A stretch of DNA of 64,000 nucleotides from Cyanophora paradoxa CCMP329 (GCA_004431415.1 QPMI01000460.1:61170-125169); one strand, 5' to 3'; shown: positions 1-64,000, numbered from the stretch's first letter. Notes: generated by a model not told the origin, from the sequence alone. Made by a program: numbers and translations.

Positions 1-12
1 ATAAAGCGTGAC

Positions 13-40370: not shown

Positions 40371-41042
40371 GATAGGGTTTCCTAGCCGTTAGTGCTTCGT
40401 TTGCACTTCGTTCGCAGTAGTACCGTGACTTGACCCGCGGCTTCTCGCGATTTCCTGAGTCACTGTACCCCTGTACGAAGATGCGACCCTAGCTACTTTT
40501 TCTGACTCTAGCTTGATACTTTCCGGTAGCCGTGTCCTAGGGTACACAGTAGTCTGTGATTAGCAGCTTTCTCTTGCAACGTGACAGCCTGCTCGCCTGC
40601 TGCTGGTACGCTACGGGAAGGTTGCTAAGGTCTACTGGGACGTATAAAACCTCCTAAAACATCCTCGCCGGGACCAGCGCACGCCAGCTGACGGACTTGC
40701 TGCGCACGTCCGTTGGCCGCGAGCGTGAACCCGCTGGACTACGAGGAGGCGAACGCTTGACGCTTTCGGAGAGCACCGCTACTGGCGGACGCACTCCGCT
40801 GACCCGCCTCGCCGCCGACGCTTCCCTTCTCGAAGCTTCGGACGCGCCTCCGCCGCTCACTCGCGCAGTTGGGGAGCAGCCCGCCGTACCGCGGCATCGG
40901 CTAGCTCCCTGGCTCATCGTTCGTGCCGCGCGCGCATCGGGATCGGTTGCGGCGGTCCGACTCGAACGACGGTCACGGGCCAGCTCGCGTACCGTACTGC
41001 GGTCGCGGCCCGACGGCAACGTCTACGTCGAACGACCGCGTG

Positions 41043-41696
41043 ATGGAGCGCGAAGGCATGACTTCCGGCGAGATGGCCCGACCTTCCCCCGGCCAACTGA
41101 CAATGCTCAACCGCACGGCCCGAGTCGCAGCGGCGCACGCCGAGGAGATCGCGCGCCGGCGGGTCATGGGCGCGGAGCCGCCGCAGGCGATCAAGATGGA
41201 GGACGGCAAGATGGGCCACACCACCGGGATTCCCGTCTCGCCCAACGGCGTCTTCCAACATCACAACGCCATCCGTTCGGCTACTCGCGGAGACAAGAAG
41301 TACTCCCTGCTGGACGACGGTTCGCAGGCGGCGTACCACGCCGTCGATTTCGGTGTCCGTTCGCTGCCGGCGGGACTAACGGAAGTCTACCGTTCGACGG
41401 TCGAGTTGCACCGGTCTCTCGTCGAAAACCTCGTCGACGCAGAGAGCGAGCTCACGAAGGCGAAGGCGACACTCGCGACGGCTACGGAGGAGGCGGCCAA
41501 GGAGGCGGCGCAGAAGGCCGTCCAGACGCGACAGGCCGTCGTCGACAAACTCCGGGCTGAGATGCCCTCGGACATTATTCGCGGCGTCCCCTCGTACATT
41601 AAACACATAAAGAAATACAAATTTAAATCCCTCCGCTACGCGCTTCGCGCTTCGCTCCTGGATTTAAATTTGTATTTCTTTATGTGTTTTTCTTAA
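41043..41696 (+). CDS. Intronless hypothetical protein with C-terminal coiled coil, at the element boundary
   Basis: Open frame MEREGMTSGE...ESELTKAKATLATATEEAAKEAAQKAVQTRQAVVDKLRAE; TATAAAA near 40643; may extend upstream via a frameshift. Confidence 0.45.
   Translation: MEREGMTSGEMARPSPGQLTMLNRTARVAAAHAEEIARRRVMGAEPPQAIKMEDGKMGHTTGIPVSPNGVFQHHNAIRSATRGDKKYSLLDDGSQAAYHAVDFGVRSLPAGLTEVYRSTVELHRSLVENLVDAESELTKAKATLATATEEAAKEAAQKAVQTRQAVVDKLRAEMPSDIIRGVPSYIKHIKKYKFKSLRYALRASLLDLNLYFFMCFS
41601..41689. terminator. Perfect 30-bp stem / 29-nt loop hairpin (terminator/polyadenylation or terminal structure)
   Basis: AAACACATAAAGAAATACAAATTTAAATCC (41601-41630) pairs exactly with 41660-41689; function inferred. 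Confidence 0.55.
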
Positions 41697-41699
41697 ATA

Positions 41700-41935
41700 A
41701 ATTTGTATAATTAATCGATAAATATGTATTTTCATGTTAATAAATATGTATAAATTAATCGATAAATATGTATTTTTATATTAAATTTTAATAATCTCGA
41801 TTAAACAATTGATATAATATCGATTAATTTATTGATATAAACGCGATTAATATGTATTTTATGCAAATTTGATATAATCTCGATTGAAGGAACATAAATT
41901 TATGATATAATCACGATTGATATAATCACGATTGA
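41700..41935. repeat. Very AT-rich degenerate repeats (AATCGATAAATATGTATTT; GATATAATCNCGATT)
   Basis: Directly visible. Confidence 0.7.
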
Positions 41936-41981
41936 AGTAGTCCACCGCCCATTCTATCGGAAATCGCAAAAATTCACACAG

Positions 41982-42764
41982 AGTTGCATTATGTCCAATT
42001 GAACAATCGATGAAATATCGGTTGAAAATAATTCACTCGTTACTGCATTATGTCCAATTAAACAATCGATGATATATCGGTTGAAAATAATTCACTCGTT
42101 ACTGCATTATGTCCAATTGAACAATCGATGAGATTGCAGCGTATTTTGTTGGAAGAGATGGTTACTGCATTATGTCCAATTAAACAATCGATGATATATC
42201 GGTTGAAAATAATTCACTTGTTACTGCATTATGTCCAATTAAACAATCGATGAGATATCGGATGAAAATAATTCACTCGTTACTGCATTATGTCCAATTA
42301 AACAATCGATGAAATATCGGATGAAAATAATTCACTCGTTACTGCATTATGTCCAATTAAACAATCGTTGAGATTGCGGCGTATTTGTTGGATTAGATGG
42401 TTACTGCCTTATGTCCAATTAAACAATCGATGAGATTGCGGCGTATTTTGTTGGAAGAGATGGTTACTGCATTATGTCCAATTAAACAATCGATGAGATT
42501 GCGGCGTATTTTGTTGGAAGAGATGGTTACTGCATTATGTCCAATTAAACAATTGATGAGATTGCGGCGTATTTTGTTGGAAGAGATGGTTACTGCATTA
42601 TGTCCAATTAAACAATCGATGAGATTCGGTTGAGATTTTTACTGTATCAAAAATGACCCCAGAGTTGCATTATGTCCAATTAAACAATTGATAAGATTGG
42701 ATTCTGTTTTTTACTGTATCAAAATTGTGTTTCAAGTGTAACATGTCCAATTAAACAGTCGATA
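41982..42764. repeat. 13-unit array: constant core GTTACTGCATTATGTCCAATTAAACAATCGATGA with three recurring spacer types (59/63-bp units)
   Basis: Core starts ~41985, 42039, 42098, 42161, 42220, 42279, 42338, 42400, 42463, 42526, 42589, 42664, 42743; spacer order A A B A A A B B B B C C'. Confidence 0.9.
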
Positions 42765-42770
42765 ATCAAT

Positions 42771-43047
42771 GTGTAACAGGTGAATCCCAAGGTGTAACGG
42801 GTGTAACAGGTAAATCCCAAAGTTTTGGATTTTCATCTCCTATGAGGAAAGTTTGGGAAACACCTGTTACACCTGTTACATGACACTATAATCAATGTAA
42901 GGAATCGAATATATTAATGCTTTGTTTGATAGATGTAACAGGTGAATCCCAAGGTGTAACAGGTGTAACAGGTAAATCCCAAAGTTTTGGGTTTTTGGCC
43001 TCCCTAGGAGCGAAGTTTGGGATTTACCTGTTACACCTGTTACACCT
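42771..43047. repeat. Two tandem iteron-containing palindromes (AGGTGTAAC units), candidate replication origin
   Basis: Second copy has a perfect 32-bp stem (42952-42983 / 43016-43047); first copy 42771-42880 is imperfect. Confidence 0.8.
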
Positions 43048-43301
43048 GACGATATTCAATAAGACATGTTATATTTCTTCAAAATCTCAGTGTGATTAAC
43101 TCGGAAATCGCGCTGCTATCTGCTTCTCCGCTTTCTCCAACCCTGAAAAGATCTCTGTTATTCTCTCATCTATCAATTTAGATATTACGGAGGTCTTACT
43201 TTCAAAAAATGATGCTCGTGGGCAACCCAAAATGATTTAAGGAAGAAGCGACAGTATAGAGTAAACCGGGTAAAAGATTTTCTCAGACGTAATTCAGTGT
43301 C

Positions 43302-43919
43302 ATGGCGTATCTCTTCGAAGGTGAGCCGATCTTCTCGGTTCCGATTGCTGAAATGCGATTTGGTGTGAAGGATATTCTTGATCTTGCTGAAACTATTGAG
43401 GTTTTGCATCGAAAGATTGGAACATACTCTTATCCTGGAATGGATCAAATGGTTTGTTTTGGTTATTTTCGGAGAAATTCGGATCGGATTTGTGCGAGAA
43501 CTCGCGATGATCGGTTCTTCTATAATCATGTGAATTATAATGATCATGGTAAGTTTAGCCATCTTAATGAAGTGCGTAATGCTGAACTTGATTTCATCGT
43601 TGTTGTTAATTTTCATGATCTTCTTTTCAACACTACAAAGACTCACGATGACGTAATTAATGCAATTGGGATATGCTATGGACAAGAAGAACATCGTGAA
43701 CGTTACTATTTCCACATTCCAAGAGATCTTCGTGCTTATCATGCTAAGTTTGAAGAGCATGGATGGAAGATTGTGAACCGAGCGACTCTACGTAAATACC
43801 TTAAACAAAATGGCGCTCGTTGGGTTCGCGAAAACAACAGATGGTATACAGAGGATCAGAATGGTGTTGTCGCTGATATCTTCAAACCATATATCCCAAT
43901 AGCTAATCGTTTCCAATAG
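43302..43919 (+). CDS. Viral hypothetical protein (205 aa)
   Basis: Intact ATG-stop ORF with viral composition; no recognised motif. Confidence 0.7.
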   Translation: MAYLFEGEPIFSVPIAEMRFGVKDILDLAETIEVLHRKIGTYSYPGMDQMVCFGYFRRNSDRICARTRDDRFFYNHVNYNDHGKFSHLNEVRNAELDFIVVVNFHDLLFNTTKTHDDVINAIGICYGQEEHRERYYFHIPRDLRAYHAKFEEHGWKIVNRATLRKYLKQNGARWVRENNRWYTEDQNGVVADIFKPYIPIANRFQ

Positions 43920-44805
43920 CTACAAACTCCAACTGAAACGAATTATCGATACCATTCATATCTACAAGATCACCAAAATAATCACGAAATTCAACTGTTA
44001 ATTCACGAATAACAAGGTTTTTGTCTGTTATTTTTATGTATTCACCATGCTCTCCGCTATGGTAAACATACTTCCCGATGTCCTGACTCAATTGTAATCG
44101 CAAGATCGCGCCTTGATTCTGCGGTTGCGATTTCGGGACTATATTGTGGTTGGATGCAAAAGAAGAGAGTTCTTTGATGTGCATATACAAGTATTGCTCA
44201 GCGTTCATATCCGCCATCTTTGGACTTGTTGCTTTGTGTTGCAACGGCACTGGATCTACACCTTCAAACGTAATTCCCCATTGTGGGTGATCAGGTGTTA
44301 TTGGTCTTCCTGCATACGATAAGAAATTCTCAGGAGCGAATACAGACCTGTTATCTTCTAAATTGTGTTGCTGGCTTACCAATAATGCAGAACTCAGACC
44401 AAGTAGTTTGGCGATTCTATTGTTTGACGCTGCTATTTCGAATGGAACGCTGCTATAAAACTCTAACTTGTATGTTGTCGGGTTGTAGTATATCTTAAAG
44501 AATGTATTTTCAAGAACTTCGTAGTTTAAACCGTAATTATATGGTTGAGTAACTCCAAAGTGTCCTTGGTTTATGTAACCACTTGGTAATGGGAATACTT
44601 GCTGATTAAGGATGAAACCACCAATGTTATAACGAACTATAATATAATCGGTTCCAATCGAATTATAAATGCTGTTGGGAATCTCTGCATATAAGATACG
44701 ACACTGTCGCGGTCTGGTTATTGGTGTGGTAAGTGAGACCTTGTAAGCATTTTCTTTCTGTCCATCTAATCGATCTCTACTATCGACATTGACAAGCCGA
44801 ATCAT
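43903..44805 (-). CDS. Minor capsid (penton, single jelly-roll) protein 1
   Basis: N-terminal VNVDSRDR..YKVSL..ILYAEIPNS and C-terminal LTVEFRDYFGDLVDMNGIDNSFQLE, typical PLV/NCLDV penton pattern. Confidence 0.85.
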   Translation of the reverse strand: MIRLVNVDSRDRLDGQKENAYKVSLTTPITRPRQCRILYAEIPNSIYNSIGTDYIIVRYNIGGFILNQQVFPLPSGYINQGHFGVTQPYNYGLNYEVLENTFFKIYYNPTTYKLEFYSSVPFEIAASNNRIAKLLGLSSALLVSQQHNLEDNRSVFAPENFLSYAGRPITPDHPQWGITFEGVDPVPLQHKATSPKMADMNAEQYLYMHIKELSSFASNHNIVPKSQPQNQGAILRLQLSQDIGKYVYHSGEHGEYIKITDKNLVIRELTVEFRDYFGDLVDMNGIDNSFQLEFVAIGND

Positions 44806-44833
44806 TTTATTATATGGTTATAGATAAAAGAAG

Positions 44834-45838
44834 ATGCCTGTGGAATACGTTGAAGTGTCTTCCTTCAAAACAATACCTAATCTGGATGCTCCAACATCAC
44901 GATTTGTTGCGGATCTTCCAAAGACGTATGAGAATGTAAGAGCGGTTCGCCTCGTCTCCGCTGAATTCTATAACTCCATCCCACTCATTAGCGGTGAAAC
45001 AGAACCTGGGGATGCAACAATAGAGGATGCCTTTATTATCAATTTCAGCCAAAAGTCCACATCCACCGGTGCAAATGCTCCTGAGATTCTATATGATAGT
45101 TGGCGTTCTATTAGACCTGGTGCAGGTCTAAAAACCCCAATCAATACTCATCAGCAACTCGTTGCCCGAATCAATAACCGTTTTGAGAATCTCTCGCCTC
45201 CTTCTGCAATTCGCTGTGGTTGGGATGTAACCGCAAAAAGAGTTATCTTTTATGCTCCTGTGGAATTCTATATTTGCTTCTCATATGCAAAAGATCCTTC
45301 TGTTTCCGCAATCGAGAAAGCGCTACGACACGCTCGAATCTTGGGTCTGGATGCTGGACGCTGGGGAAACAAGTTTATTAAATCACAAGTCTATGGAACA
45401 GATACAAGTTCCGTTTTTACAGGTGCAAATGTAAACGGTATTATCTCAACATTCCCCACAGAGACCTGTAAAGATAACGTCTTTTTCGTGAGAGTAAAAG
45501 AACTTGGTGACCTCGTCCAATGTGCCGATGGTCTCCTTACTGGATACTTCCATAAACTCACGGTTCAAGATAAAGACTTTGCGGAACACGTTGTTTACAA
45601 TTCGACGGAAGCAAATCCGCTGTATAAATACTTTAATAAGAAACTATCACTATCGCAATTCTCGGTAGATGTAGTGAATAGTCAAAATGAATTAATCGAT
45701 TTCGAAGGTCAACCTGTGCATCTGACATTCGAGATCCGGTATGGTGACGAACCCGCCGGTGATCCAATTTATGAGTATTTCAAAATGAGAATGAGAGAGA
45801 CCCACCCCTTCTATCCAAATATTGCCGGATTCGCGTAA
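44834..45838 (+). CDS. Minor capsid (penton) protein 2
   Basis: FVADLPKTYENVRAVRLVSAEFYNS and LSQFSVDVVNSQNELIDFEGQPVHLTFEI. Confidence 0.8.
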   Translation: MPVEYVEVSSFKTIPNLDAPTSRFVADLPKTYENVRAVRLVSAEFYNSIPLISGETEPGDATIEDAFIINFSQKSTSTGANAPEILYDSWRSIRPGAGLKTPINTHQQLVARINNRFENLSPPSAIRCGWDVTAKRVIFYAPVEFYICFSYAKDPSVSAIEKALRHARILGLDAGRWGNKFIKSQVYGTDTSSVFTGANVNGIISTFPTETCKDNVFFVRVKELGDLVQCADGLLTGYFHKLTVQDKDFAEHVVYNSTEANPLYKYFNKKLSLSQFSVDVVNSQNELIDFEGQPVHLTFEIRYGDEPAGDPIYEYFKMRMRETHPFYPNIAGFA

Positions 45839-45892
45839 ATTAAGGATCATTCACAGAATTTTTATATTTTTGTATAGTAAAAGCAAAACAGA

Positions 45893-47292
45893 ATGGATGT
45901 TACCTCGACCCTTCAACGTCTTTCTCTGAAAGAGGCGCTTACAACGCCCGAGGAAGCCAAAGCGTTCTTCCTCGATAACTCGCTTATGCTTGGTCTTGAA
46001 TCGAAGACGAAACCCGTTCTGGTAACCGTTAGTCCATCGACAACCTACGATAACAACGTTGGTCAACGCGTTTCTTTCAAACTTCCCCGCTACAACTTTG
46101 TCGGTAAAATCGAACTCGCTTTCGATCTTCCCGAACTAACTGCTTTTACTGGTGATGACGACCTGGTGCGAAATGGTTACACTCGTCCCGTCGGTGCGCT
46201 TGTAGAGCGTCTTGAATTCTCGTATGGCTCGTATACCTACCACGTGCCGTCTGATTTCCTGGCGATTTTCCCACTGGTCTACTATTCTGAGGATCAACTG
46301 GCGAAAAAGAAGCGTTCAATGGGAATGCTTCATGGTATCCCCGCTCACGGAACCAACCGTAAAGGTGGCGCTTTCTTCGTCGAAATTCCGGTGCCGTGGT
46401 TGAACCATTATCTACCACTTGGCGCTCTCTCGGGTGAAGCCGTCATCACTGTGTGGTTTAAGGAAGCTAACAAGGGATACCTTGAAACTTCTTATGGTGG
46501 TCGCTCTCTTCCTGTTGTAGGAAGCACTGCTGCTGATAAATCATCAGATGATGGACTTGGAAATGCTACGAGCGTTACACTTGCTAATGTTGGTCAAAAC
46601 ATCACCACTGGCGGTATTACTGGGTTCGAAGTTGCTGGAACTGTTCCACCAATGACCCATTACATCTCCATTAAAGCACCTCGTCTCTACATGCATGCTA
46701 TCAACGTTTCTGATGAACTGTTTGCAACTGTTATTGAGAAGGTTAAGACCACAGGGATGGCTATTCCGCTCTCGACATCGGTTTCGTCGATTCTATCGCT
46801 GTTGCTGCAAAAGGTAACACTCAACCCAACCGAATTAATCTTAGCCAAATCTCCGGTCTCGTTTATGCTCTTCTTGTCTCTGTTCGTGATGCTGATGGTG
46901 TCGATACCTCGAATGGTTCTCACAGCGTCCTTAAAACGCTTGCGAATGCGAAGGATATCACGATGACTTGTGAGATCAACGGACAGCGTCTTTATTCGAC
47001 GGAGCCGATCCCGCTACTCAAAGGTGCGGAACTCATCGCCGATGCCTTCAAATGCTCGAATATGGACAAGGAAGCAAACCGTTACGTCCTTACTGGATTC
47101 CCATTCTGTGTTGATGGTGAGAAGGCGATTCGCAACATTGCCCAATCTGGATATGTTGACCTTACGAACTCGTCTTCATCATTCCTCACTCTATATCTTC
47201 CTGCTGATCGCACAATTACTGTTAACGTTCGCGCTCTCATGCATTCGTTCATTATTGTCGATAAGGACGGAATTCGCCGCATTAATCTCTAA
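45893..47292 (+). CDS. Major capsid protein (double jelly-roll), ~466 aa after repairing one -1 frameshift near 46770
   Basis: GQRVSFKLPR..KIELAFDLP; GALVERLEFSYG; VEIPVPW..YLPLGAL; C-terminal GYVDLTN..FLTL..VNVRALMHSFIIV..G; lies between the pentons and the ATPase. Confidence 0.8.
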
Positions 47293-47353
47293 ACCATTAT
47301 CAGTAAGATTTCGTTATTTTTATCTATCTTTATTAAGAAGAATCTACTACGCC

Positions 47354-48250
47354 ATGTCTGACGTTCCCGAATTTAATGCTGGTGAGATGATAAACCCACC
47401 ATTCCGTGTCTTAGCAATTGGAAAATCTGCGACGGGTAAAAGCGAAGCGGTCAAGTATTGGCTAAAACAGCTACATGATGCGAAAAAGATAGATGTGGTT
47501 CTCGTTGTAAGTGGGACGAGTTTCAATCATTTCTGGGATAAAGTAGCAACATTGCAACTCGGTAAATGGGATGCGCCTTACATCGCTAAACTTCTCGATG
47601 AAAGACAAGAGAAAATTGAGAAAGGAGAACCCGTTAACCAGTTATGTGTCGTTCTCGATGATCTTATAGACAATGAGATAGTCGATCTAACCCGTGATAA
47701 AATTATTGGAAGTCTTTACAGCCGTGGAAGACATTCGAAAATTTCGATTATCTGCATAACTCAGAAACTGCGTAAGGTTTCTTCAACCATTCGCGTTAAT
47801 TCGGATTATGCAATGTTCCTTAGTGCCGCCAATCGCAAAGAACTGGAAGCCATTGAAGAAGAATACAATATCATGCGGGATAAAGACGCTTTCTATAAGA
47901 TGTTTGAGGAATACGTTCACTCCTATCAGTTTCTCATTTGGAGTTCTGCGAATTATTCGGTGGAATACTATGTTGATAAAGCGGAACTCGTTAAAGAGTT
48001 TGGGTTTCCTCGGTTTCACAGAAAGCCCAAAAAGAAAGAAGACGAATTAAAACCACCCGAGAAGGAGGAAGCGCCGAAAGAGATAAAGAGCGCTGTTCAC
48101 ACGAATAAGTTGATGCGATATAAGAGGGATTGTAAAATTATCTCTGTATGTTATAATATACAATGCCGCCGAAACGTAGAGGTGTTCCCGCTGGTGCTAT
48201 GTCATATTCCGGCGGTGAAAGTCATGGATCTCTCAACACCACACCCATGA
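47354..48250 (+). CDS. A32/FtsK-family genome packaging ATPase
   Basis: Walker A GKSATGKS, Walker B LCVVLDD, SRGRHSKISIICITQ, IRVNSDY; true stop possibly ~48135. Confidence 0.92.
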   Translation: MSDVPEFNAGEMINPPFRVLAIGKSATGKSEAVKYWLKQLHDAKKIDVVLVVSGTSFNHFWDKVATLQLGKWDAPYIAKLLDERQEKIEKGEPVNQLCVVLDDLIDNEIVDLTRDKIIGSLYSRGRHSKISIICITQKLRKVSSTIRVNSDYAMFLSAANRKELEAIEEEYNIMRDKDAFYKMFEEYVHSYQFLIWSSANYSVEYYVDKAELVKEFGFPRFHRKPKKKEDELKPPEKEEAPKEIKSAVHTNKLMRYKRDCKIISVCYNIQCRRNVEVFPLVLCHIPAVKVMDLSTPHP

Positions 48251-48893
48251 AATTCAACGGAATGAGCGAAGTGAAACCATCACAACAGGAAGAAGACCCT
48301 TAAATGCCGCTTATGAAGAAGCGCCCGGTGATAAAGCGCCGCAAACATCCCAAAGTGAGCAATTGAACATCTCGCCGGAAGTCTCGAAGATGAAGGCGGT
48401 CGGTGAAGGCGCCCGTCGGATTATCGGTGCTGCCGATGATCGTGAACTCGGTCTCAAAGATCTTTCCCTCGCTCGCAAGGGTGAAGGTGTTTCCAAAGAA
48501 TCCGACAAGGTAATTCAATCGATGGCTGGTGAAGTTACTTACAAGGTTGCGCCAACTCAAAACATCCACCGAATCCCGAAAGCGCAATGGGATGAGATGA
48601 CCGCTAAATTAAAGGATCTGGAAGCAAAATCAAGCGCTCTTGAACAGTATGTAACTGAGAAGAAGGAGCGATCGAAAATCAAGGAAATGCTGCGCAAAGA
48701 GGTATTCCGAATGGGTATTACTGGTGTTCCTGATAAGCAGTTTATTGGTAAGAAGGAGACCCAAATTGACGAACAAGCGGTAGATGAGTTGAAGACAAAG
48801 ACCCAAAAGGGAACTGTTGAACCTGGTGCTACCAAAGCGGAAGTCGACAAAGGTGTAGCTCCCACAGCATACAAGCGGAGAGTTTGGCTTTAA
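48163..48893 (+). CDS. Charged hypothetical protein with basic termini (MPPKRR...YKRRVWL), one -1 frameshift at ~48300; possible core/DNA-binding protein
   Basis: ORF 48163-48303 continues into ORF 48363-48893 in the -1 frame. Confidence 0.55.
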
Positions 48894-48919
48894 TTATATA
48901 TTGTTTAAAGAGGGAATCA

Positions 48920-49138
48920 ATGGAGTTTCTGAAAAAGATCATTGAGATGTTTGAGATGCATTGCGTAACCGATTGTCACAATGACTGCTGCGATACGAAA
49001 TTCGAAATGGATTTCTCAGATGGTGGAAGCAATGGAGGGCGAAGGCAATCGCAAGATTCGATAACAACTGAGACAGTCACCGTTACGGAAACTGAGACTG
49101 TCCGTCGCCGATCGTTTTCGCATAACGATCATAAATAA
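48920..49138 (+). CDS. Small Cys/His-containing hypothetical protein
   Basis: MEFLKK...HCVTDCHNDCCD. Confidence 0.45.
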   Translation: MEFLKKIIEMFEMHCVTDCHNDCCDTKFEMDFSDGGSNGGRRQSQDSITTETVTVTETETVRRRSFSHNDHK

Positions 49139-49346
49139 TATCTTTGGTTATGGTATCAAATGTCACTCGAAGAGATCTACGACATCATACTATCGAAACG
49201 AAGGATTTACGCCGTTAAATCTGCAATTGAAGAACGTAGACACCAACTGGCTTTGGTCAACAAAAAATGACACCATAAAATACTTAAAGACATCAGGCAT
49301 AATACAGAGTGGTAAAACATTTTCTCAACTACATATAAAGGGGAAC

Positions 49347-49583
49347 ATGGCGACTGTAATTCATATAACCGAAGACATGATTAGCGTTGTCGAATTCGGC
49401 GATGAAGAAGAGGAGACCCGCGCCAATTACAAGATGAGAGATGCTCTAAGGAAGCGAACGCTCTACAACGAAGACCCCGTTTATCGGGAGTATAAGAAGG
49501 CGCAATCGCTCGCTTCATATTATCGTCGTAAGGAGCGGGAGGGAATCGAAAACAAGTCACGGGGACGTCCACGAAAGTATTGA
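49347..49583 (+). CDS. Small basic protein with C-terminal AT-hook
   Basis: Ends ...KSRGRPRKY*; preceded by TATAAAG. Confidence 0.65.
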   Translation: MATVIHITEDMISVVEFGDEEEETRANYKMRDALRKRTLYNEDPVYREYKKAQSLASYYRRKEREGIENKSRGRPRKY

Positions 49584-49789
49584 GGGAAATACCCATTTGA
49601 CCGCTGAACCCAATTACTCATTTTTCGAGCGGTCTATCGATATGCTTCGATAGATCCGTAACCATCTCCCGATTGCCGTTTTTGGTAATTGAAGAGATAT
49701 CAACCACTTAAAGGTTAGCCGCCAAAAAATGACAGGAATCCGGAGAAACTCTTTTCTCCATCATAGATAAGACACCCCCGATTATCGAA

Positions 49790-52128: not shown

Positions 52129-52195
52129 TTACAACAAAACATACTATTCTTACTGATAATTCATACTTTTTTTATAACCTTACTGAAAACAGTAA

Positions 52196-52288
52196 GTGTA
52201 ACAGGTGTAACAGGTAAATCCCAAACTTCGCTCCTAGGGAGGTGAAAATCCGAAAACTTTGGGATTTACCTGTTACACCCGTTACACC
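52196..52288. repeat. Third iteron palindrome, inverted relative to 42952-43047, just downstream of the primase-helicase
   Basis: GTGTAACAGGTGTAACAGGTAAATCCCAAACTTCGCTCCTAGGGAGG...TTTGGGATTTACCTGTTACACCCGTTACACC; the loop matches the reverse complement of the earlier loops. Confidence 0.85.
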
Positions 52289-52301
52289 GAATAAAAAATA
52301 A

Positions 52302-52505: not shown

Positions 52506-55500
52506 ATGCGTTCAAAATCCAAAATAAAAATGTTCCTTTATAGCAAAGATGCCCGCCAAACGAACAGACTGATCAAAGAAAAGAAAAATGAAATACTTGG
52601 ATTGTTAGGAACTCTCTTAGTTACAGGTGAGATCACCGAAGCGGAATACGATAGAGAAGCCGCCATCTTAGATAGACGACCGCGATTAGGTCAACTCACT
52701 GAGATTGCAAATGACCTCTACGATCGCATGCAACGAATGGAGGAATTTATGGGTGAAGGACAGAGATTAGGAGCAATTGAACCGGATATCGAAGATGGAC
52801 AAGCGATGAATCAAGCGTATTCGTGGTTGACCTATCGCGCCCGAAATGAAGTTGTCGTGGATGCTATCGAATTCCTCGAAAGAATCGCACCAAGTCTACC
52901 GCAACGCATTAAAACCTGCTTAGAGCAACTGAGAGCCGTTAAAGTCCGTCTGACTTTCGTTTGCAAATTTACCAAAGTAGGTAATCCGCGCATCTATATC
53001 ACCAAATTCATTTACAGCGATTATTTCGTAATTACCCGATCCCGCAACATAGACACAGAAGTTCGCAAAGCGTTACAGAAAATGCAAGAGGAAATGACGC
53101 AAGTGGATAGTTACCGTTTGGAGAAGATCGAAATACTTAGAGGCATTATCATGTCTTATGCACCTGTGGGAGGATGCTATTTCGCAACTCCCGAATGGAT
53201 CGCATCCAAGAAAGCGACGGTGAATGTTAAGAATATCGACGGGCAAGATTGCTTCAAGTATGCGATTTTGGCTTACCTGCATCGAAAGGACATCAATAAA
53301 CACAAGAGTAACGAACCGAGCCAATACCGCCGATGGTTAAATGAACTCAATTTCGATGGTATTCAGTTTCCCGTTGCCTGTGATGCTGAGGTAATCGATC
53401 GATTCGAAGAACTGAACCCCGAACTCTCTATTAACATTTACGGAGCCGATAACGCCAAAGAGTGTTTCTATCCTCTCCATCAATCAAGTAACCCAAGAAG
53501 AAAGACCAAGATTAATCTTTTACTTATCGAAAACACCGAAGATGATCGTGGACACTACATTACTATCATGTCTTTTAGTCGTCTTCTGAAAACTACGTTT
53601 GATAAAGCATGTGATGGTCGCATTTATTACTGTGAAACCTGCTTATCGCGTTTCAGAACTCAGGAGAAATTAGACCTGCATGTTGAAGCAAATCGCTGCA
53701 TTGATTGGAGGGAGAGCAAAGGCAAATGCCCGAAAGTGGGAAGCGCAATTGAATTCGGTCTGCAACATCTACGTAAAACCGTGTGGCTTCCTGTGATCTG
53801 TTATGTTAAAGTTGAAGATCATTCAGTTGCTATCGATGCTCAGAGAAGTAAACGTGAGATTAAAGCGGTTTCACTGAGAGTGGTAATGGGAGAAGAAGTG
53901 AGAGCATACCGTTTTGAGGGAGCCGATCCCCTTGGTTCTCTCTTTGTTACTCTGCAAGATATTAGACCCGAAATCGTTGAGACGCTGTTTAGAAATATTC
54001 CGATGCATCCACTCACAGATGATCAGAAGGCGGAATACAAGGTAACAAAACACTGTTACATTTGCTCTCAGAGATTCACCCACGAAAACTTCCCGGTTCG
54101 AGATCATTGCCACCAATCCGGCGATTTCATCGGAAAGGCATGCCGAAACTGTAACCTCCACCGGCGAATTTCGAAGCAAACCAAAGTAGCTATCGTGGTG
54201 GATCACATGGATGAATGCGGACACGGAATATTCCGCAAGATTGCACAGCAAGACGATAAACTTCGTGTTGAGATTCTGAGCAAGAATTTCGATCAATACC
54301 TATCGCTTCAATGGGGCATGTGGAAGTTCATTGATGCTTCCCATTTCATGGATTTCCAATCTGTGGATGTGGGCGATTTAATGAGAAAGTTTGAAGCATT
54401 CCGCAAATTGGCGTTTTCTCAATATGGATTGGATCCCGCACATTATGTTAGCGCACCAGGTCTCTCTTGGGACGCTATGCTCAAACATACGAAAGTTAAG
54501 ATTGAACTTATCGATGATGTAGAGAAATACGAATTTGTTGAGAGAGCCATTAGAGGTGGATTTGCTACCATGCCCACACGATACGCAAAGGTAGAGAATG
54601 CTGACGATCATATAGTTTTGTTGGACGCAAATAATCTTTATGGGTATGCTCTCAGCCAACCACTACCTATCGGAGATTATCGATGGGAAGATGTCACAGA
54701 GGCACTTAAAGAGGTAGAGGGTCGAAGCGCATTTATTGAAGTTGACCTTGAATACCCCACATCGCTTGAAGAACATTATGATTTCCCACTGATTGTGAAT
54801 AAAGAAGTGATCACCAATGAGATGCTTGGTGATTATCAACAGAAACTATTAGATCTGACGGGCGAAAAGATCAGCAAAGACCCCAAACTTACAGCGACAT
54901 TTACACCCAAGAATAAATACGTGATTGCTCGACCTCTTCTTAATTACATCGTTAAGAAGGGTGTTGAAATCAAGAAAATAAATAAGGTTCTCTCTTTCGC
55001 TACTTCCCCATTCATGAAGTCTTACATTGGTTTGAATACTCTTCTCAGGCATGAATCTACTAACCATTTCGAAAGCGACTTCTTTAAACTCATGAACAAT
55101 GCAATTTACGGTAAATGCTTGGAATCTTGCAGGGGTCGCTCAACTGTCAAGATCGCTAACAGTGAGAAACTCTGTAAGAAATACGCAGCAAGTCCGCTTA
55201 TCAAAGCGACCAATGTATTAAACGAGAATGCCGTTGCCTTTGAGATGTATTCGAAGCATGTGAACTAGATAAACCCGTAGCAATTGGCGCTTTCGTTTTG
55301 GATTTTGCGAAACTACATAACTATCGGTTCTTCTATGATGTAGTAAGGAAGAAGTGGGAAACCGCTAAATTACTGTTCCACGATACCGATTCGTTCTGTC
55401 TTTTCCTGAAAACCAATAATCTGAACGAAGATATGAAAGAGATAGGTGAGTATCTCGATAGGAGCAATTACGATAAATCCCATCCTCTCGTGAGTATCAA

Positions 55501-55828
55501 AAACCGCATGGTTCCAGGTAAATATAAAAATGAGTTCCCAAATGCAAAGATCATGGAGTATGTGGGTCTGAGATCGAAACTCTATGCTTTCAGAACTGAG
55601 ACCAACGAAAGAGTAAAGATGTCGGGGACTTCCTCGAAAGAGGTTCATTTTGATGATTTTAAGAGATGTCTGTTCGAAGGCATCATAAAAACAGTATCAG
55701 TAACAAACAAGCGAAGGCAAGACCACAACTTATATGACTTGGAGAGCAGAAGGGTCGCTCTAAACCAACTCGATAGCAAACGGAAGATATCAGCCGACGG
55801 CATTCACAGCATTCCATTTGGTCTTTAA
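52506..55828 (+). CDS. polB: Protein-primed family B DNA polymerase (Polinton/adintovirus type) with OTU-like protease region, Zn finger and EndoVII-like insert; one -1 frameshift at ~55263
   Basis: KKATVNVKN..DCFKYAIL..GHY; CETC..H; VRDHCHQSG..CRNCNL; YGLDPAHYVSAPGLSWDAML; IRGG; DANNLYG; KLMNNAIYGK; HDTDS; GLRSKLY. Confidence 0.93.
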
Positions 55829-56013: not shown

Positions 56014-57384
56014 ATGCCCTCAGCACAGATAGGATTGCGACCCATTCCTAAAATCGTAAAGAAGAGCATGAAAGAAGACCAAGGGAACATGCTACCGATA
56101 ACCATTCCGGTCGAAGAGAAGAACACACGAATCTTAAAGAAGTCGGAGATGGTTAAACAACTGATCCCGGAGGCATTGCCTACTGAGACTGTAACGAAGA
56201 ATCGAAGATCGCGAAGAAGTTTTACGATCCGCGCACAGGTTACAAAGGTTTCGGGGCAATGAGAAAGGAACTACCAGAGGAAGACTACAAGAAGATGAGA
56301 GAATGGTATGATAAACAGGAAGTCGTTCAGATAAACGCACCGACCCTTTCAAGAAAGAGAGATCCGATGATTCCGATTCGGCAACCTCTCGATACCTACG
56401 TAATCGATCTGCTCTTCTTCCCAGCATACAAGAACCAAAACGACGGATACGATACGTTCATGTCCGCGATGGAATCTACCTTACGCACGGGTTACATCAT
56501 TCCGATGAGAGATAAGAGCGCTCTTAGGGCGCTTGCGGCGTTTGAACAGCTACAACGAAGAGTTCCTCGACCTATCGCACGCGTTCAGAGTGACAGCGGA
56601 AGCGAGTTCACAAATAACATGTTCACGAATTACCTTGCTAAGAAGTTCATAGACCATCAGATAAGCGATGTCGCAGATCATCGAAGCAAGGTAGAATCGA
56701 AGCGTTTAACAAGCAGATCAAACGATTGATCACGAACTATTGCATAGCAAACAACACAGCGCGATTCTTCGATGTATTGGGAGACATTGAGTATAACTAT
56801 AATAATACCATCCACTCAGCAACCAAGAGAAAACCAGCAGAAACGACGGAAGATCATTACCGTGAGATTATCGGATTAGAAGATGAGAGGTTCAAGAAGT
56901 CGATTGCTTACTTGGATGGTATCAAACAGGGTATGTTTGTGAGAGTGAGAATAGAAAAGAACCCATTCGCTAAACAAGGTGTCAATTGGTCGCGAATCGT
57001 CTATACTGTCGAAGGGAGAGAGGGTTTCAAGTTCAGGTTGCGAAATCCGAACGGCGAAATGGTCGAAGGAGATTCGCTTTCCACGAACTGTTACCTATCA
57101 AAGGTGTTGAGTATCACGAAGCGCCCACAGTGGATGCACTTGAACAAGCGAAAGAAGAAGCCCGGGTCGATTCGGCAATTCGCAAGGAAGGCATCGAAAA
57201 AGCGGATGACGTCCCAGAAGAACCGTTAACACAAGCCAGAACCAAGAAGAAAGGTAAGGCGGAACGTGAATTAAAGAAGTTAACCATAGCAGGAACCCAG
57301 AAACTATCAGAAGTCAACAGTCAGAGATGGTATACAGACTTTCAGACCTCAAAAGAGACATATTCAGCCCACAAACCCGGGTAA
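56014..57384 (+). CDS. Retroviral-like (rve, DDE) integrase of Polinton type, three -1 frameshifts
   Basis: FYDPRTGYKG..WYDKQE; YVIDL..NDGY; VQSDSGSEF; (GR)IEAFNKQIK after repair; YNNTIHSATKRKP; GMFVRV..NWS..YTV. Confidence 0.9.
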
Positions 57385-57522: not shown

Positions 57523-57740
57523 CAGTTATCATATCATACCTCTCCCCCGGTTATCATATCATATCATACTTTCCCCCCCAGTTATCATACTTCTCCCCCA
57601 GTTATCATACTTCTCCCCCCAGTTATCATACTTCCCCCAGTTATCATAATTAATCCCCCAGTTATCATAATTCATCCCCAGTTATCATATCATACTTCTC
57701 CCCCCCAGTTATCATACTTCATCCCCCAGTTATCATATCA
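57523..57740. repeat. ~10 copies of CCCCAGTTATCATA(CTT) between the convergent integrase and patatin genes
   Basis: Directly visible, unit 18-29 bp. Confidence 0.85.
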
Positions 57741-57934
57741 CACTTCTTCCCCAATGACGTCACGACATATATACCGCATATATACACGTGACGTCACGAC
57801 ATATATACACTATATATACCAAAACCTCCGTATGCCGGTTGACCAAGAAAAAATGTTTGGAAAAAATGTATATATACGTATACATATACATATATATAAT
57901 CAAAAAAATCGGAAAAAATTCCCTCTCTTTTCTA

Positions 57935-59457
57935 TCGTATAAATGCGCCGTCACATCGACTCTCATGGTCGGGGCATTTATATATACCAGCGGATATATT
58001 CGTATATATCTTGTTCTCAGTGGGAAACCTATATAGAAAACATCGTTTATTGCAAGCGGAAAGCCCCGTTATATGATACATCCCCAGAATTATGTGCATT
58101 ATTTATATTCTCACATACAAACATTCTATTCACACCTTCATACTTGATATATGACCATGAAACCCCATCTTGCGATGTTGCAACATTGAAAGTCTTAATA
58201 AACGCAGTTGTTATACCTGACCCATAAGCAATTATCGAAGCGATCTCATATGTATATGGGAATGCTATTTGCAGATATTCTGTTGGCGTTTCCCATACTC
58301 CGTTAATGCGGATGCATTCGCTTCCATCCAGTTAATGATGGCGGGCTTTAAATGCCTCCTTTCCAAATTTCGCAGACGAAGCGGTAAACGCATTATCAGG
58401 TAGAAGATACCAATTAGCATCAATGGGAGGTATGTTATTAAGAGTGGATGATACATACGATCGGACAGGGTTCTTAATCTCATAGTTTGTTACCAGCAAA
58501 TCACAGAGTCTATTAATCATATTGTCGTTTGCTTCTATATACGATTCGGTCGCAGCTATCATTTCAGGAATCTTAGAGTATCATCAAGGGAGTTCAATAT
58601 ATCTTTCGGAAGCGGCACAGAGAGTCTATAATATCTTGCATATCCTTGGTCATCGTTATATGGTAGAAACTCATGCATCTTTTCAAGAGCAGACAGTTCA
58701 CTTGCAGCCATAAGCATATTGATTAATGGACTTCCAGAGGTCGAAGCAATCCATGAGAGAATACCCCAGGTATTCACGTTCTCATAAGATAACCGACGGT
58801 TGATGCATCGGTTTCGTTAACCTCACCACAAGAGATGCTAATAACTATAATGTCGTCGTCGTTATCATATATCTTTTTCGCGTGACTGTAACCACAAACG
58901 CTTGGGTTATTGTTACCAGATATTGCACCATCAATTAGACACATGCCGTCGTAATCGACAGGAGCGAAATATGTAGGAGCGGCAGAAGTAGAACGTGCTG
59001 CAATCTTACTTGGTATGGTCTTGTAATCGTTGTCGTTTGCTATAAAAATGGGTTTCATGCTTACAGTGTCGAACGTCGTAATCACCACGTCTTTCAGGGA
59101 ATCTTTATGAGAGCTTCCCCAGTCACAGAGAGAATGGCGGTCTCTAATGGTGTTACGTCGTATTTCGTATTAAAAAGGGCATTCTCTATGATGTTTCGTG
59201 GATTCGCAAAGATCAGAGGGAGATGATAGAGGTAAGTATCGTGAAGGTCGGTTGCAGTTAGTTTAGGTTCATTTGGAAATTCGGGTTTTTCACATTGAGA
59301 CCGATTGCAATAATACCGCCTGTGGATGTTCCACTTACGAGATCTACAAGATCGATCACGCGTTTACCGGTTCTTGTTTCGATCTCTTTAGCAATCTTGT
59401 TATGATGATACCACGAGCGCCACCTCCGGACAAAGATAATACGACTTTTAGGGGCAT
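57935..59457 (-). CDS. Patatin-like phospholipase with C-terminal discoidin (F5/8 type C)-like domain; multiple frameshifts
   Basis: ATG 59457 MPLKVVLSLSGGGARG; GTSTG; ARSTSAAPTYF; IDGAI..NNP; downstream AFTASS..FIKTFNVATSQDGVSW..PLRTRYIRIYP..MRVDV. Confidence 0.75.
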
Positions 59458-59505
59458 CTTTACTTATCTTAAATTTAATAAATCTGTATAAGTAGAGCAA
59501 GCAGG

Positions 59506-62500
59506 ATGAGTTTCAATTATCCAGCAAATTTACAGACAGTATCAGGTGGTGGTAAAGGGAACCCAAAACATGTGAACTTTGATAATATCACCATTAAAGG
59601 GTCGGCTTCTATTGATCAGAGCGCGGATAAACCCTCGAAAACTCATCCCCGGTTCATGCTTTATCGGTGAACCAAACGGATCCTGATAAAGAAGATGTTA
59701 GCATTGCTTTCAGTTTGGGCAATGTTAAAAAAACGCTGTTGCAGAGATCAAGGCAACCAGAAGGAGACCACGGAAACTTAAAACCAGTGGAACGCATCCC
59801 GATATTCCCACACGATTCGATAGCGGACGTTTGGTTTTCAACGTCCAGGATGAGAAGGGAGTTCATCGTAGCGGTTTGAGAATTTATAATGAAGGATCAA
59901 ATACGATTGCACAAATTCCCCAGATTTTACAGGTAGCCCCACATGGCGAAGAGAATCAGATTCGCCACACCAACAGTATTTATCCGAAGGACATCGTCGA
60001 AATGCAGAAACTAATGCACTGTTTGGTTTCACTCTTCCACAGGATACTTCCAAAGAAAAGATTCAATCACGGTCGACAGTAGCCCCAGTCAACCAGTAGC
60101 CATTCATTTACACCCCGACCTTGTCGAAATGGATAGGCATTTACTACCTTTGAAAACAAATACCAAAGACCTTGGTATTAGAACCCGACAGTGGCGAAAT
60201 ATTCACGGTAGCAACGTGTATGCAAACGGTGAGAAACTTGTAGCGAGAAAACTATCAGAGAAATATTCGAACATTACGGACCTGTTCCGGTTCCGTTTCC
60301 TCTACCATGGGATCCGCCAGATCTTACACCAAAGAAGCAACCAGGAAGAGAGTATACAGCAGAAGAGAACGTTGCTTTGGGCAACATATCGTGAGTTGGG
60401 AAAGTTCGAAACAAACCAGTATTTACAGTGTATCAACCACCAACAGAAGAGCTTCTTGCACCAGATGTGAACGTTATACCTCTTGAAGATCGACGATTCG
60501 AAGAAGATAATGAGTTACCTGATGGTTTCGATCCAACTTATAACATACGATCGCTACGAACCATATGATGAACAGCTTTTACCTGATGGATTCGCACCGA
60601 TCTATTTGATTTCATTGTTGATTGGGAGGACATCCGAAATAAACCCAAACATATCCACCTGATCCCCATGCTCACGATTGGGACGAAATAGAGAACAAAC
60701 CTGATAGATTCCACCTGTGGATCATAGACACGATTGGGAGGATATCGATGGAATACCAGAAGAATTTCCACCAGAAGACATAGACACACTTGGGATCAAA
60801 TCGATGCACCAGAAGAGTTTCCACCAGCACCACATAGACACAATTGGAACCAAATCGACCAGCAACCTACATTCGCATCAGCAGGTGATGCTGTCAATGA
60901 TGGGCTACATGGTGTGAGTCTCTATAAGAATATAGACACAGAGGAAAGATTAATGTTAGATACGTATTACGTCAATCGTCACGGAATAAATGCAGGCACC
61001 ACAATGGAAGGCGAATTATATATCAGACCACCTACACGAGTTAATTTAGTTGCAGCAGGTGGAGGTATTGGAGTAATGCAGAATAAACCGGGCATCTATC
61101 TAACAAGTTACTACCCAGATGACATCCGATGACAGTTACATTACCACCTATCCCATCTCTTCCAGCCGATCCAATTAATTTGTAGACAAAGATGCAGCAA
61201 TCCAAATTAACGTTACTGATGTAAGCGCTCTGATGGATCAAGACCAAAGTTAATATTTAGTCGAGATCGGCTCTTACCTGATGATTTATTGGAGATCGAG
61301 ACGATTATAAGCAATGTGAGATAGGGTGGATTAAAACCAATTATAATGATGTTGATAAGCAAGGGGTCTTGGAAATCAATCAGAGAGCAGCAGCAAAAAC
61401 ATACACAACGAAACAATATCACGAGTGGTCACAGAGGATTATTTAGAAAACAAGAATTACATAGATGGAACCGAATTAGCTACGGCTTTGCTTCCTTTGG
61501 CGGCAGTTTCAACTGTCCAATCTTGGTTAGGTAACTACCTTCCCTCACAGGTGGAACCATAACAGGTAATCTGACAGTCAATGATACATTGAGTGTAGGT
61601 AAGAGATACACCTAAGTGGAAATCAGTTCGAGAGAGGATCCAAGATTTCTCTACATATAATCCAAGGGAAATAGCAGATTGCCTACTTCACTTTAACGCA
61701 AACTCTGATAATTGGAAGAGTGGAGCGCTTGTTTATGAACTAAAAATTACGCAAGGGGCGGCTCAGTTTGGAATTATATTAATGTAGTTAACACTCTTGT
61801 TAGTTACGGCAGTGTTACTTTCAGCTTCCTCGGTCCAAATAGTAAAAAGTTCTACCAGTGGCTACCACAAACACATTTTCATTCATCAATTATCAATATC
61901 AAACTTCTACTCTTTATGATACTATCCTTTCAGCGGAATTACGTCTCATTTGTCATTCGATTTAAACCAAGCGTTCCAAATGAAACAGTTTTACGAATCG
62001 ACGGCTCAACACATGTGAATGGAAACAATCTCAGTTGGTTGATTACTAAACAAGCGGTATTTGAATGTCAATAAGAATGGCTACGATTTAGTGAGCATTC
62101 CAATATCAACAACAGAAGGGATTCTTGGACAATGTTCGATATTCGAGTAACAAGCACAACTGTTCATTTTGAGTTAATGGAATTCATCGAGATACAATAT
62201 CTGTTCCGCCGATTCAAGATATCCACGCCAAGATGTCAATAAAATACATGTGGGTGATAGCGTTTCGAAATTTGATCTATGTGAACTCCTTTGTTATGGT
62301 AGAACCCTTTCAGATACAGAACTACAAAATATTAGATGGTATTTACAGCAAAAATACGGTTTTTCGGAAGACCCTTTAAATCCATATCCATTGGATAACA
62401 ACAAGATTCTTGTTAGAACCAACGAGTTTAAAGTAACCGGCACACTCTTGGCGACGAATGTTGTTATGACTTCATCAACCTCAGGCACAGTATCGACTGT

Positions 62501-64000
62501 GAGCCTTCAAGAAAAAACAAATAGTTTGGAAGAGAGTATTTATACCCAACAAGAGGCAATTACAGCACTCCAAACTGAGGATGCCGCACTTGCAACGAGA
62601 ATAACTACCATAGAGAGTGATTATACTTCTTCTAATGTGGTTCAAGAATGGATGTCAGATTACTTACCCCTCACAGGAGGGACACTGTCAAGTAATCTTA
62701 CCATTTCCGGTAATCTCAAAGTGTCAAGCAACATTCAATTAGGAACTCATGGGACAGTTTTAGATGTGACTTATGACACACCCTATTATCCTGTTACTTC
62801 CAACACCGACCCTGCATTTACGATTCCGAATTGTGTAATGGCTGCAAAACCATCTGGCTATGCCCATTTACAGAATGCGTCTCAAACTACTATAAATAAC
62901 CGAGCAACATCGGCTGTCCCATTCATCCCAAATTTTTCTCCTGGTGTGTGGACTACCGGTTCATATTATAAAATCAATCCTTTAATTAATAATCAACTTA
63001 CTTTCAAAGCACCGGATAACCCTAATGTTGCTATCGAATTATTAACAAAGAGAGTAGATACTATCGATTGGAGTGCTGGATTAACATTTTTCTTTGTAGG
63101 TAGTGTTAGGTCAACTGATTGGACGCAGAATATGTTAAGCATATTAAATACCAATGTGCATGAATGTTCCTATGGGACTTATTTGGATACCTTTGTAAAT
63201 CCAATCGTTTGTAAATGGGGCATGAATAAATATTTAAATGCTGCTGCTGGAATTAACATGCAACGCGGAACACCAACATATAGTAACCTTCCAAATGTCC
63301 TTCTGCCTTATGAAGACTATGCGAATTTCAAATTTGCATACTGGGACACTACTGTTACTTCAAATAGCATATCATATTCAATAAACGGAAATCATCATGG
63401 AACTGTTGCGGGTAACTGGCTTCCGCCATCAACATTTAATAATATGATGATACGATTTAGTTTGGGAGAGTTTGCAGAACTACTTGTTTTCAATAGGGCC
63501 TTGTCCGAGATTGAGAAGCAACAAGTGAGATTTTATATTCAACAGTTGTATGGATTTCCTATAACTCAACCTCTTTACTATCCTGATAATATGCGAATAT
63601 CAGCAAATTATCTCTATCTAAACAACTTACACATTGGTTCAAATGCTATCATTCCAAACTATACAACATCAAATGTGGTTCAAGGTTGGATACAGAACCA
63701 CACACCTGCGTGGTCAAATATCACAGACAAACCATTAACTTTTGCTCCTGATGCTCATACTCACTCAAAAGACCAAATAACAGATTTCGCCCATTCTCAT
63801 TTATGGTCGGACATCACAGATAAACCGTTGACATTTGCACCTGATGCCCACACTCACACAAAATCACAAATAACAGATTTTGCCCATTCTCATACAAAGT
63901 CAGAGATTACAGATTTCGCCCATTCTCATACAAAGTCAGAAATAACAGATTTCGCCCACACTCATTTATGGGCTGACCTCACTGATAAACCATTAACATT
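59506..64000 (+). CDS. Long fibre/adhesin-like protein with phage-tail-fibre HxH repeats and two LamG/ConA-like domains; frameshifted to ~62.3 kb, then open to the window end (partial)
   Basis: HRHDWEDI/HRHNWNQI repeats ~60660-60860; YLPLTGGT motifs at ~61535 and 62661; ELLCYGRTLSDTELQNIRWYLQQKYG and ELLVFNRALSEIEKQQVRFYIQQLYG; terminal (AHSHTKSEITDF)/(WSDITDKPLTFAPDAHTH) repeats. The 62280-64000 frame is missing from the ORF track because it has no stop. Confidence 0.7.

What the first reader, a model, noticed from the sequence alone, without database searches (positions are those of the whole stretch)
40416..64000. Apparently intact endogenous Polinton-like virus with an unusual gene set
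Seen: an intron-free AT-richer block inside GC-rich intron-dense host DNA, encoding 2 pentons, MCP, packaging ATPase, Prim-Pol/SF3 helicase, pPolB, rve integrase, patatin-discoidin and a phage-like fibre. Known: MCP+penton+ATPase+pPolB+rve integrase defines Polintons/PLVs. No adenain-like maturation protease is visible in the window, which is more PLV-like. Inference: this combination may represent an undescribed lineage able to form virions.
Basis: partly seen in the sequence, partly recalled or inferred. Interest (0 to 1): 0.9.

Follow-up and report, generated by a model that had tools for sequence, protein, structure and literature searches.

The report
Multicopy algal Polinton-like virus, proofreading lost
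This is a real, roughly 22-kb-plus piece of a small DNA virus, likely integrated in many near-identical copies in the genome of what is likely a glaucophyte alga; its capsid family was already catalogued, its many broken genes are likely assembly errors, and its DNA polymerase lacks the proofreading residues that nearly all close relatives keep.

Summary
The viral block is real: double jelly-roll capsid (shown through a 56-63% identical relative), A32 ATPase, PrimPol-SF3 helicase, pPolB, rve integrase, patatin-discoidin and fibre. The two pentons rest on motifs only. Three corrections. (1) It starts near 41601 at a 30-bp hairpin; 40364-41602 is a separate multicopy LTR element. (2) The window is not intact: seven of nine named genes are frameshifted. 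Short-read contigs carry an extra letter at nine coding places shown, so the family is probably intact, but this copy is unproven. (3) The lineage is not unseen: its closest capsid relative is a Cyanophora paradoxa protein listed by Bellas et al. 2023 (366 capsid genes, two unnamed clusters), and patatin-discoidin and fibre domains of glaucophyte PLVs are in print. Depth is 12-22 times single-copy host DNA in three runs. Not found in my searches: the Polinton-type pPolB has lost its proofreading motifs (kept by 118-119 of 119 other relatives) and sits beside a second replicase flanked by palindromic repeats. No junction-spanning contig was listed and the right end lies outside the window.

The parts
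40364..40661 (.). 298-nt TG..CA long terminal repeat of a host LTR element (not viral; holds the AGTAGT taken for a Polinton end)
   Evidence: depth 1.9-2.2 times that of the adjoining internal part in 3 of 3 DNA runs; covered by RNA-labelled runs
40662..41602 (+). Internal part of the LTR element with a coiled-coil, possibly gag-like ORF (41043 on), cut off by the viral block
   Evidence: a 2.4-kb contig at 15-16 times single-copy depth matches to 41602 and then runs on unlike the window; gag-like is inference, no family hit above cut-off
41601..41689 (.). Terminal hairpin: 30-bp perfect stem, 29-nt GC-rich loop; likely left end of the virus
   Evidence: -32.5 kcal/mol, z -10.6, 0 of 200 shuffles as good
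41696..42765 (.). AT-rich subterminal tandem arrays (22-23, 44, 59, 63, 72-nt units)
42772..43060 (.). Two copies of a ~100-nt palindromic repeat; candidate replication origin
   Evidence: z -5.1 and -9.2; origin role inferred
43302..43919 (+). 205-aa ORF of unknown function, unbroken
   Evidence: no hit in Pfam, NCBIfam, PHROGs
43903..44805 (-). Penton-like protein 1 (300 aa), unbroken
   Evidence: terminal motifs; fold inconclusive
44834..45838 (+). Penton-like protein 2 (334 aa), unbroken
   Evidence: unnamed Nucleocytoviricota/Preplasmiviricota proteins, 0.98; C-terminal motif like protein 1
45893..47292 (+). Double jelly-roll major capsid protein, one frame break near 46768
   Evidence: fold of relative P0121: PBCV-1 capsid Z 16.0, rmsd 7.8, 309 aligned
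47354..48250 (+). A32-type packaging ATPase; break at 48125 affects only the tail
   Evidence: (P0123, 84%, 261 aa)
48390..49583 (+). Three small ORFs (167, 72, 78 aa), unknown; the last has a faint HNH-family hit (E 0.024)
49733..52128 (+). PrimPol (AEP)-D5-SF3 helicase in five frame pieces
   Evidence: contigs over 50078-51843 match with 0-2 other letters and 2 gaps
52179..52288 (.). Third palindromic repeat, inverted to the left pair, just after the helicase
   Evidence: 90% over 111 nt; z -10.3
52506..55828 (+). Polinton-type pPolB (vOTU, zinc finger, endonuclease-VII-like insert, palm) with dead, partly deleted exonuclease; one break near 55265
56014..57384 (+). rve (DDE) integrase in frame pieces; breaks at 56196 and 56686, a third inferred near 57050-57100
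57527..57819 (.). Short internal tandem arrays between integrase and lipase
57943..59512 (-). Patatin-like phospholipase fused to an F5/8 discoidin domain, six frame pieces
59506..64000 (+). Long fibre-like gene with phage tail repeats, heavily frame-broken to 62178, open at the window end

Best explanation
The block from about 41601 to beyond 64000 is a Polinton-like virus genome, likely integrated by its own rve integrase into an LTR retrotransposon of a likely glaucophyte host, one of likely 12-20 near-identical copies of a family whose genes are probably intact. Shown: the gene set, the motifs, the hairpin, the three palindromes, the depth, the loss of exonuclease motifs. Inferred mechanism: on activation the element would be excised at its ends; the PrimPol-SF3 protein would load on the palindromic repeats, unwind and prime, and the proofreading-less pPolB (protein-primed after vOTU cleavage, or primed from the terminal hairpin) would copy the genome; the A32 ATPase would pump it into an icosahedral capsid of MCP and two pentons carrying the fibre, and the discoidin-patatin protein would bind sugars and breach a membrane on entry. 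No RNA polymerase or capping gene is seen, so it would need host nuclear transcription or a helper giant virus. The two replicases likely record acquisition of one replication module by an element that already had the other.
For: Gene set and motifs. MCP fold of P0121 nearest PBCV-1 (Z 16.0, 13.6), faustovirus 13.6, above mavirus 9.8 and Sputnik 7.8; 87 viral matches at E<=0.001, led by capsid proteins. Depth of gene 43281-44151 is 16.5, 22.2 and 12.2 times a single-copy host contig in runs X1, X8, X14; near-identical contigs of capsid, helicase and polymerase parts all lie at 660-1023 in X1. Of 12 indel rows shown, 11 are letters missing from the window (the 12th is half of a compensating pair) and 9 fall at frame breaks or gene ends; 3 of 3 go the same way, one inside the LTR element, while single-copy host contigs match with 0 gaps. 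Relatives P0121, P0123, P0001 read through the breaks colinearly. Exonuclease loss is shared with the 45-49% identical P0001, so it is a lineage trait, not decay. Krupovic et al. 2024 link exonuclease loss to helicase gain.
Against: No listed contig bridges 41602/41603 (932 rows not shown). Right end, TIR and target-site duplication are outside the window, and no genome is held. Contigs collapse copies, so a break private to this copy cannot be told from an error; at several places only 42-78% of depth shows the extra letter. The MCP model is weak (pLDDT 51) and is of a relative. Pentons unproven. The virus/host depth ratio varies 12-22 between runs (GC bias is the likely cause, untested). No virion, excision or helper virus is shown.
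Confidence: 0.66

Rival explanations
1. The block is a composite: a PrimPol-driven capsid element bounded by the palindromic inverted repeats (42.8-52.3 kb) lying in or beside a transpoviron-like pPolB-integrase element, each mobile on its own.
For: Inverted repeats bracket capsid plus PrimPol-SF3 and exclude pPolB-rve. Barth et al. 2026 describe such repeat-bracketed second replicases, with an element of the C. paradoxa assembly read as three elements.
Against: Both sides have the same GC and similar near-identical contig depth (660-1023 in X1); fibre and lipase lie right of pPolB but serve the capsid on the left; the bracketed part has no integrase.
Confidence: 0.14
2. This copy is a decayed provirus: the frameshifts are real mutations, and the intact letters in short reads come from other copies.
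For: More than 20 frame changes in 22 kb, dense at 58-62 kb; contigs drop rare variants; at some places the extra letter is in only part of the depth.
Against: Differences are almost all single letters missing from the window, also in the neighbouring LTR element, with none in single-copy DNA; long contigs match with no substitutions (1514 nt, 0 other letters, 2 gaps); MCP and pPolB need no stop codon to be read through, only a frame change. Bellas et al. report the same artefact in other protists.
Confidence: 0.14
3. The viral DNA is a free, hairpin-ended linear element in the culture and was joined to the chromosome by a misassembly at a repeat.
For: The join falls inside a 15-16-copy repeat; no bridging contig is listed; the end is a hairpin; depth ratio to host varies between runs.
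Against: Present in 14 DNA runs of 14 listed studies at 0.70-0.73 word share; the ratio stays within a factor of two in 3 of 3 runs tested, from 2019 and 2024; many diverged relatives sit at about single-copy depth; an integrase with a full DDE triad is encoded; 366 capsid genes are recorded in the C. paradoxa assembly.
Confidence: 0.06

Closest known systems
Cyanophora paradoxa endogenous viral elements, MCP clusters 21 and 29 of Bellas et al. 2023 (PMC10120064, Tables S2, S4)
   Same: P0121, the best MCP relative (56-63%), is a row of Table S2; another row (465 aa) differs from the window's MCP at about 30 of the first ~190 residues (counted by eye). 272 + 94 capsid genes, both clusters labelled 'new' with no group name (columns counted by eye).
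   Different: Only catalogued: the main text never names the species. I could not tell which of the two clusters holds this MCP, nor see the per-locus table (file cut). No genome map, copy number, ends or polymerase anatomy seen there.
Maverick/Polintons (Polintoviricetes; 'alpha adintovirus-like' PolB + integrase noted in C. paradoxa by Starrett et al. 2021, PMC8502044)
   Same: pPolB with vOTU and endonuclease-VII-like insert, 32-43% to 119 Polinton-type polymerases, the two named ones cnidarian; rve integrase hitting 15 of 80 pPolB loci; A32 ATPase.
   Different: Exonuclease dead; capsid, penton, ATPase, helicase, lipase and fibre hit 0 of those 80 loci; no maturation protease seen; second replicase; hairpin instead of an AG-type end.
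Mavirus-like virophages (Maveriviricetes/Lavidavirales)
   Same: rve integrase, exonuclease-less pPolB plus a separate SF3 helicase; multicopy AT-rich insertions in a GC-rich protist, associated with retrotransposons (recalled).
   Different: MCP is closer to NCLDV than to mavirus; no protease seen; the pPolB keeps a recognisable exonuclease remnant and Polinton-type sequence, so the loss looks independent (not tested with mavirus in a tree).
Halocafeteria seosinensis PLV subtype 4 and virophage subtypes with terminal palindromes (bioRxiv 10.64898/2026.07.28.741278)
   Same: Palindrome at the very end of an integrated element, proposed to prime replication; rve integrase.
   Different: There linked to non-pPolB replicases; here a pPolB and a PrimPol-SF3 occur together. 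No sequence comparison made.
NCLDV-like PLVs (Zoravirus, Zephyrvirus, VC218) and Mriyaviruses (bioRxiv 10.64898/2026.06.19.733378)
   Same: PLV-size genome with NCLDV-like MCP; rve common in Zora and VC218; primase-SF3 or pPolB and lipase in Zephyr.
   Different: No HUH, VLTF or Mriya48 detected by Pfam/NCBIfam; that preprint does not name Cyanophora or glaucophytes; its HMMs were not available to place this MCP or ATPase.

Membership tests
Polinton-like virus (broad sense: DJR MCP + penton + A32 ATPase, 15-45 kb) | Double jelly-roll major capsid protein | tested here: met
   (Z 16.0, rmsd 7.8, 309 aligned, for relative P0121)
Polinton-like virus (broad sense) | A32-like packaging ATPase | tested here: met
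   (E 1e-10, above cut-off)
Polinton-like virus (broad sense) | Single jelly-roll penton | tested here: inconclusive
   motifs and Atlas for; weak model, no specific fold match
Polinton-like virus (broad sense) | Integrated, with TIRs and target-site duplication | tested here: inconclusive
   multicopy depth and sharp left junction; no bridging contig listed; right end absent
Polintoviricetes (Maverick/Polinton) | Protein-primed PolB with TP-vOTU-palm | tested here: met
   the terminal-protein domain itself was not tested
Polintoviricetes (Maverick/Polinton) | Exonuclease domain in pPolB (TP-vOTU-EXO-PALM) | tested here: not met
   5 of 6 catalytic positions lost, spacer 34 aa against 122-439
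Polintoviricetes (Maverick/Polinton) | rve integrase | tested here: met
Polintoviricetes (Maverick/Polinton) | Adenain-like maturation protease | tested here: inconclusive
   none among 38 pieces or by motif, but the right end is missing and four ORFs are unassigned
Polintoviricetes (Maverick/Polinton) | Mavpol- or Gossevirus-type MCP and ATPase clade | not testable with these tools
   reference HMMs not held; clusters 21 and 29 carry no Mavpol label in Table S4
Virophaviricetes | Virophage-type MCP | tested here: not met
   mavirus Z 9.8 and Sputnik Z 7.8 rank below PBCV-1 16.0 (weak model); C. paradoxa MCPs fall outside the virophage columns of Table S4
Mriyaviricetes / Zoravirus | HUH endonuclease, VLTF2/3, Mriya48 | tested here: inconclusive
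   no such family hit; the 205-aa ORF stays unassigned; right end missing
LTR retrotransposon (40364-41602) | Two TG..CA LTRs per element | tested here: met
   ends; LTR depth 1.9-2.2 times internal depth
LTR retrotransposon (40364-41602) | RT/integrase genes, primer-binding site | not tested
   the rest of the element is not in the window

The most novel reading that the evidence does not exclude
A recently amplified, still competent virus lineage specific to glaucophytes, with an NCLDV-type capsid nearly without relatives outside its host, in which an animal-Polinton-type pPolB lost proofreading independently of mavirus and the pPolB-S1H viruses after pairing with a PrimPol-SF3 module, and which replicates from hairpin ends and palindromic origins. 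It would be a third, recent case of the exonuclease-for-helicase trade, caught with the dead domain still recognisable, and an inducible virus of a lineage for which I found none described.
Probability: 0.33. Interest if true: 0.7.

Novelty: new variant of a known kind. Interest (0 to 1): 0.4.

Why it matters
Endogenous PLVs in protists are common and this family is already counted, so the headline is ordinary. What remains useful: the lineage is very isolated (2 MCP relatives among 1.84 billion representatives, none in IMG/VR or JGI metagenome scans) and unclassified; it sits at 12-22 near-identical copies in a cultured alga with many public runs, so activation is directly testable; and its polymerase offers a test of the proposal that helicase gain compensates for loss of proofreading, and of hairpin-primed versus protein-primed replication in these viruses.

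Tried and rejected
No whole genome is held, so the right end and other copies could not be read. MCP word search: 0 hits among 3249 candidates. IMG/VR scans with MCP, ATPase, penton 1, helicase and the palindrome core: 0 relatives each. JGI metagenome scan with P0121: 0. Penton fold searches gave nothing specific; PDB sequence searches nothing. The 205-aa ORF was considered as HUH nickase or adenain from recalled motifs; no family hit, and its Atlas look-up did not complete. No RNA holder on record was listed; RNA-labelled run X19 had no cover from 41706 on and X15/X20 only short, partly diverged pieces at depth 2-8: no evidence either way on expression. An IQ-TREE run did not finish; FastTree on 121 palm domains puts window + P0001 on a long branch (support 100) with no firm sister and no outgroup, so no donor is claimed. 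No tRNA in the window. Three look-ups of earlier findings returned nothing. AGTAGT at 40416 as Polinton end: rejected. DUF5901 paper search: 0 papers.
Full report
Observation. GC drops from 0.70 in the flank to 0.41 from 41603 on. The flank is genuine host DNA: single-copy contigs match it without differences and an RNA-labelled run skips introns there. The capsid gene has two relatives among 1.84 billion representatives, P0121 (56%) and P0122 (37%); its second piece is 63% identical to the C-half of P0121. A weak model of P0121 (pLDDT 51) matches double jelly-roll capsids, PBCV-1 first (Z 16.0, rmsd 7.8, 309 aligned), mavirus and Sputnik lower; the Atlas gives Capsid_N for the window's own piece. 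The two pentons are supported only by motifs and an Atlas match to unnamed viral proteins; fold tests were inconclusive.

Left boundary. The AGTAGT at 40416 is inside a 298-nt TG..CA repeat (40364-40661). In three DNA runs this repeat has 1.9-2.2 times the depth of the adjoining 40632-41602, itself 15-16 times single copy, and the contig holding that part runs on unlike the window after 41602. That is an LTR element cut at 41602. The viral DNA begins there with a 30-bp perfect hairpin (z -10.6), then 1 kb of tandem arrays and two ~100-nt palindromes; a third, inverted, follows the helicase at 52179-52288.

Integration and copies. Fourteen DNA runs hold 0.70-0.73 of the words of 39000-48900 (the best may be the source sample). 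Gene 43281-44151 stands at 16.5, 22.2 and 12.2 times a single-copy host contig; summed contig depth is no true copy number and GC bias is uncorrected, so I read this as 12-20 near-identical copies, with diverged relatives besides (806 of 1696 records laid at under 95% in X1).

Intact or not. In the window MCP, ATPase tail, helicase, pPolB, integrase, lipase and fibre are split over frames. Of 12 indel rows shown (61 not shown), 11 are letters missing from the window and 9 lie at breaks or gene ends (48125, 55265, 56196, 56686, 57947, 58323, 58339, 59285, 59503); contigs across the helicase show 2 gaps and 0-2 other letters; 3 of 3 rows go the same way, one in the LTR element. This one-way pattern, confined to repeats, is what unpolished long-read consensus gives (established knowledge; Bellas et al. 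report it). It shows the family, not this copy, to be intact.

Polymerase. The two pPolB pieces align end to end with P0001 (45% and 38%). The other 119 best relatives are Polinton-type. Among them the vOTU Cys/His, ExoI D/E, ExoII N/D, ExoIII Y/D and palm residues are kept in 118-119 of 119; the window and P0001 keep vOTU and palm but lose five and six of the six exonuclease positions, and the stretch holding ExoIII is 34 residues against 122-439. Krupovic et al. 2024 (passages and section 10) describe exonuclease loss with helicase gain in mavirus and pPolB-S1H viruses; here a PrimPol-SF3 gene lies next door. My paper searches listed no report of this loss in a Polinton-type pPolB; independence from mavirus was not tested by tree (one search has no outgroup).

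What is in print. P0121 is a Cyanophora paradoxa protein, so the host is likely that glaucophyte or a near relative (inference). Bellas et al. 2023 (passages, supplement rows and parts 28-29; file cut, per-locus table not seen) count 366 MCP genes in that species in two unnamed clusters and list P0121 and a closer 465-aa MCP, without naming the species in the text or in the PDF supplement. Starrett et al. 2021 (one passage) note adintovirus-like proteins there. A 2025 Microbiome paper (passages, supplement search) reports PTR fibre and discoidin, alone or fused to patatin, in glaucophyte PLVs. Barth et al. 2026 (abstract, sections 10 part 1, 11, 13; figures and supplements not seen) describe repeat-bracketed second replicases, with one element from that assembly. 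A Halocafeteria preprint (passages) describes terminal palindromes; Barth et al. 2024 (passages) propose inverted repeats as primase-helicase origins. Bellas and Sommaruga 2026 (parts 1-3 of 5) define NCLDV-like PLV groups and do not name glaucophytes; their supplements were closed and could place this family.

Verdict. A real endogenous PLV of a catalogued but, in my searches, undescribed family; probably intact as a family; gene set less unusual than claimed. The new points are the proofreading-less Polinton polymerase, its pairing with a palindrome-flanked PrimPol-SF3 module, and the hairpin end. New variant of a known kind; interest 0.4.

Noticed in passing
window 40364-41602: A 15-16-copy LTR element, covered by contigs of three RNA-labelled runs at depth 11-50, is the target site of the virus; here the virus sits in the retroelement rather than the reverse.
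   Followed up: partly
window 28490-28652: Perfect 73-nt inverted repeat with a 17-nt spacer in an AT-richer patch of host DNA; MITE- or foldback-like.
   Followed up: no
window 1-7000: GC 0.51-0.60, below the 0.63-0.80 of most host DNA further right; no ORF identified.
   Followed up: no
window 18478-21400 and 24170-33600: Host exons that read by eye as an MCM8/9-like helicase gene and an adenylate-cyclase-like gene (names recalled, three pieces had no NCBIfam hit).
   Followed up: no
window 43302-43919: Unbroken 205-aa ORF with no family hit; a diverged single-copy relative differs across most of it (joints).
   Followed up: partly
window 54100-54160 (pPolB residues 514-551): Endonuclease-VII-like insert is kept inside the otherwise dead exonuclease domain.
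   Followed up: partly
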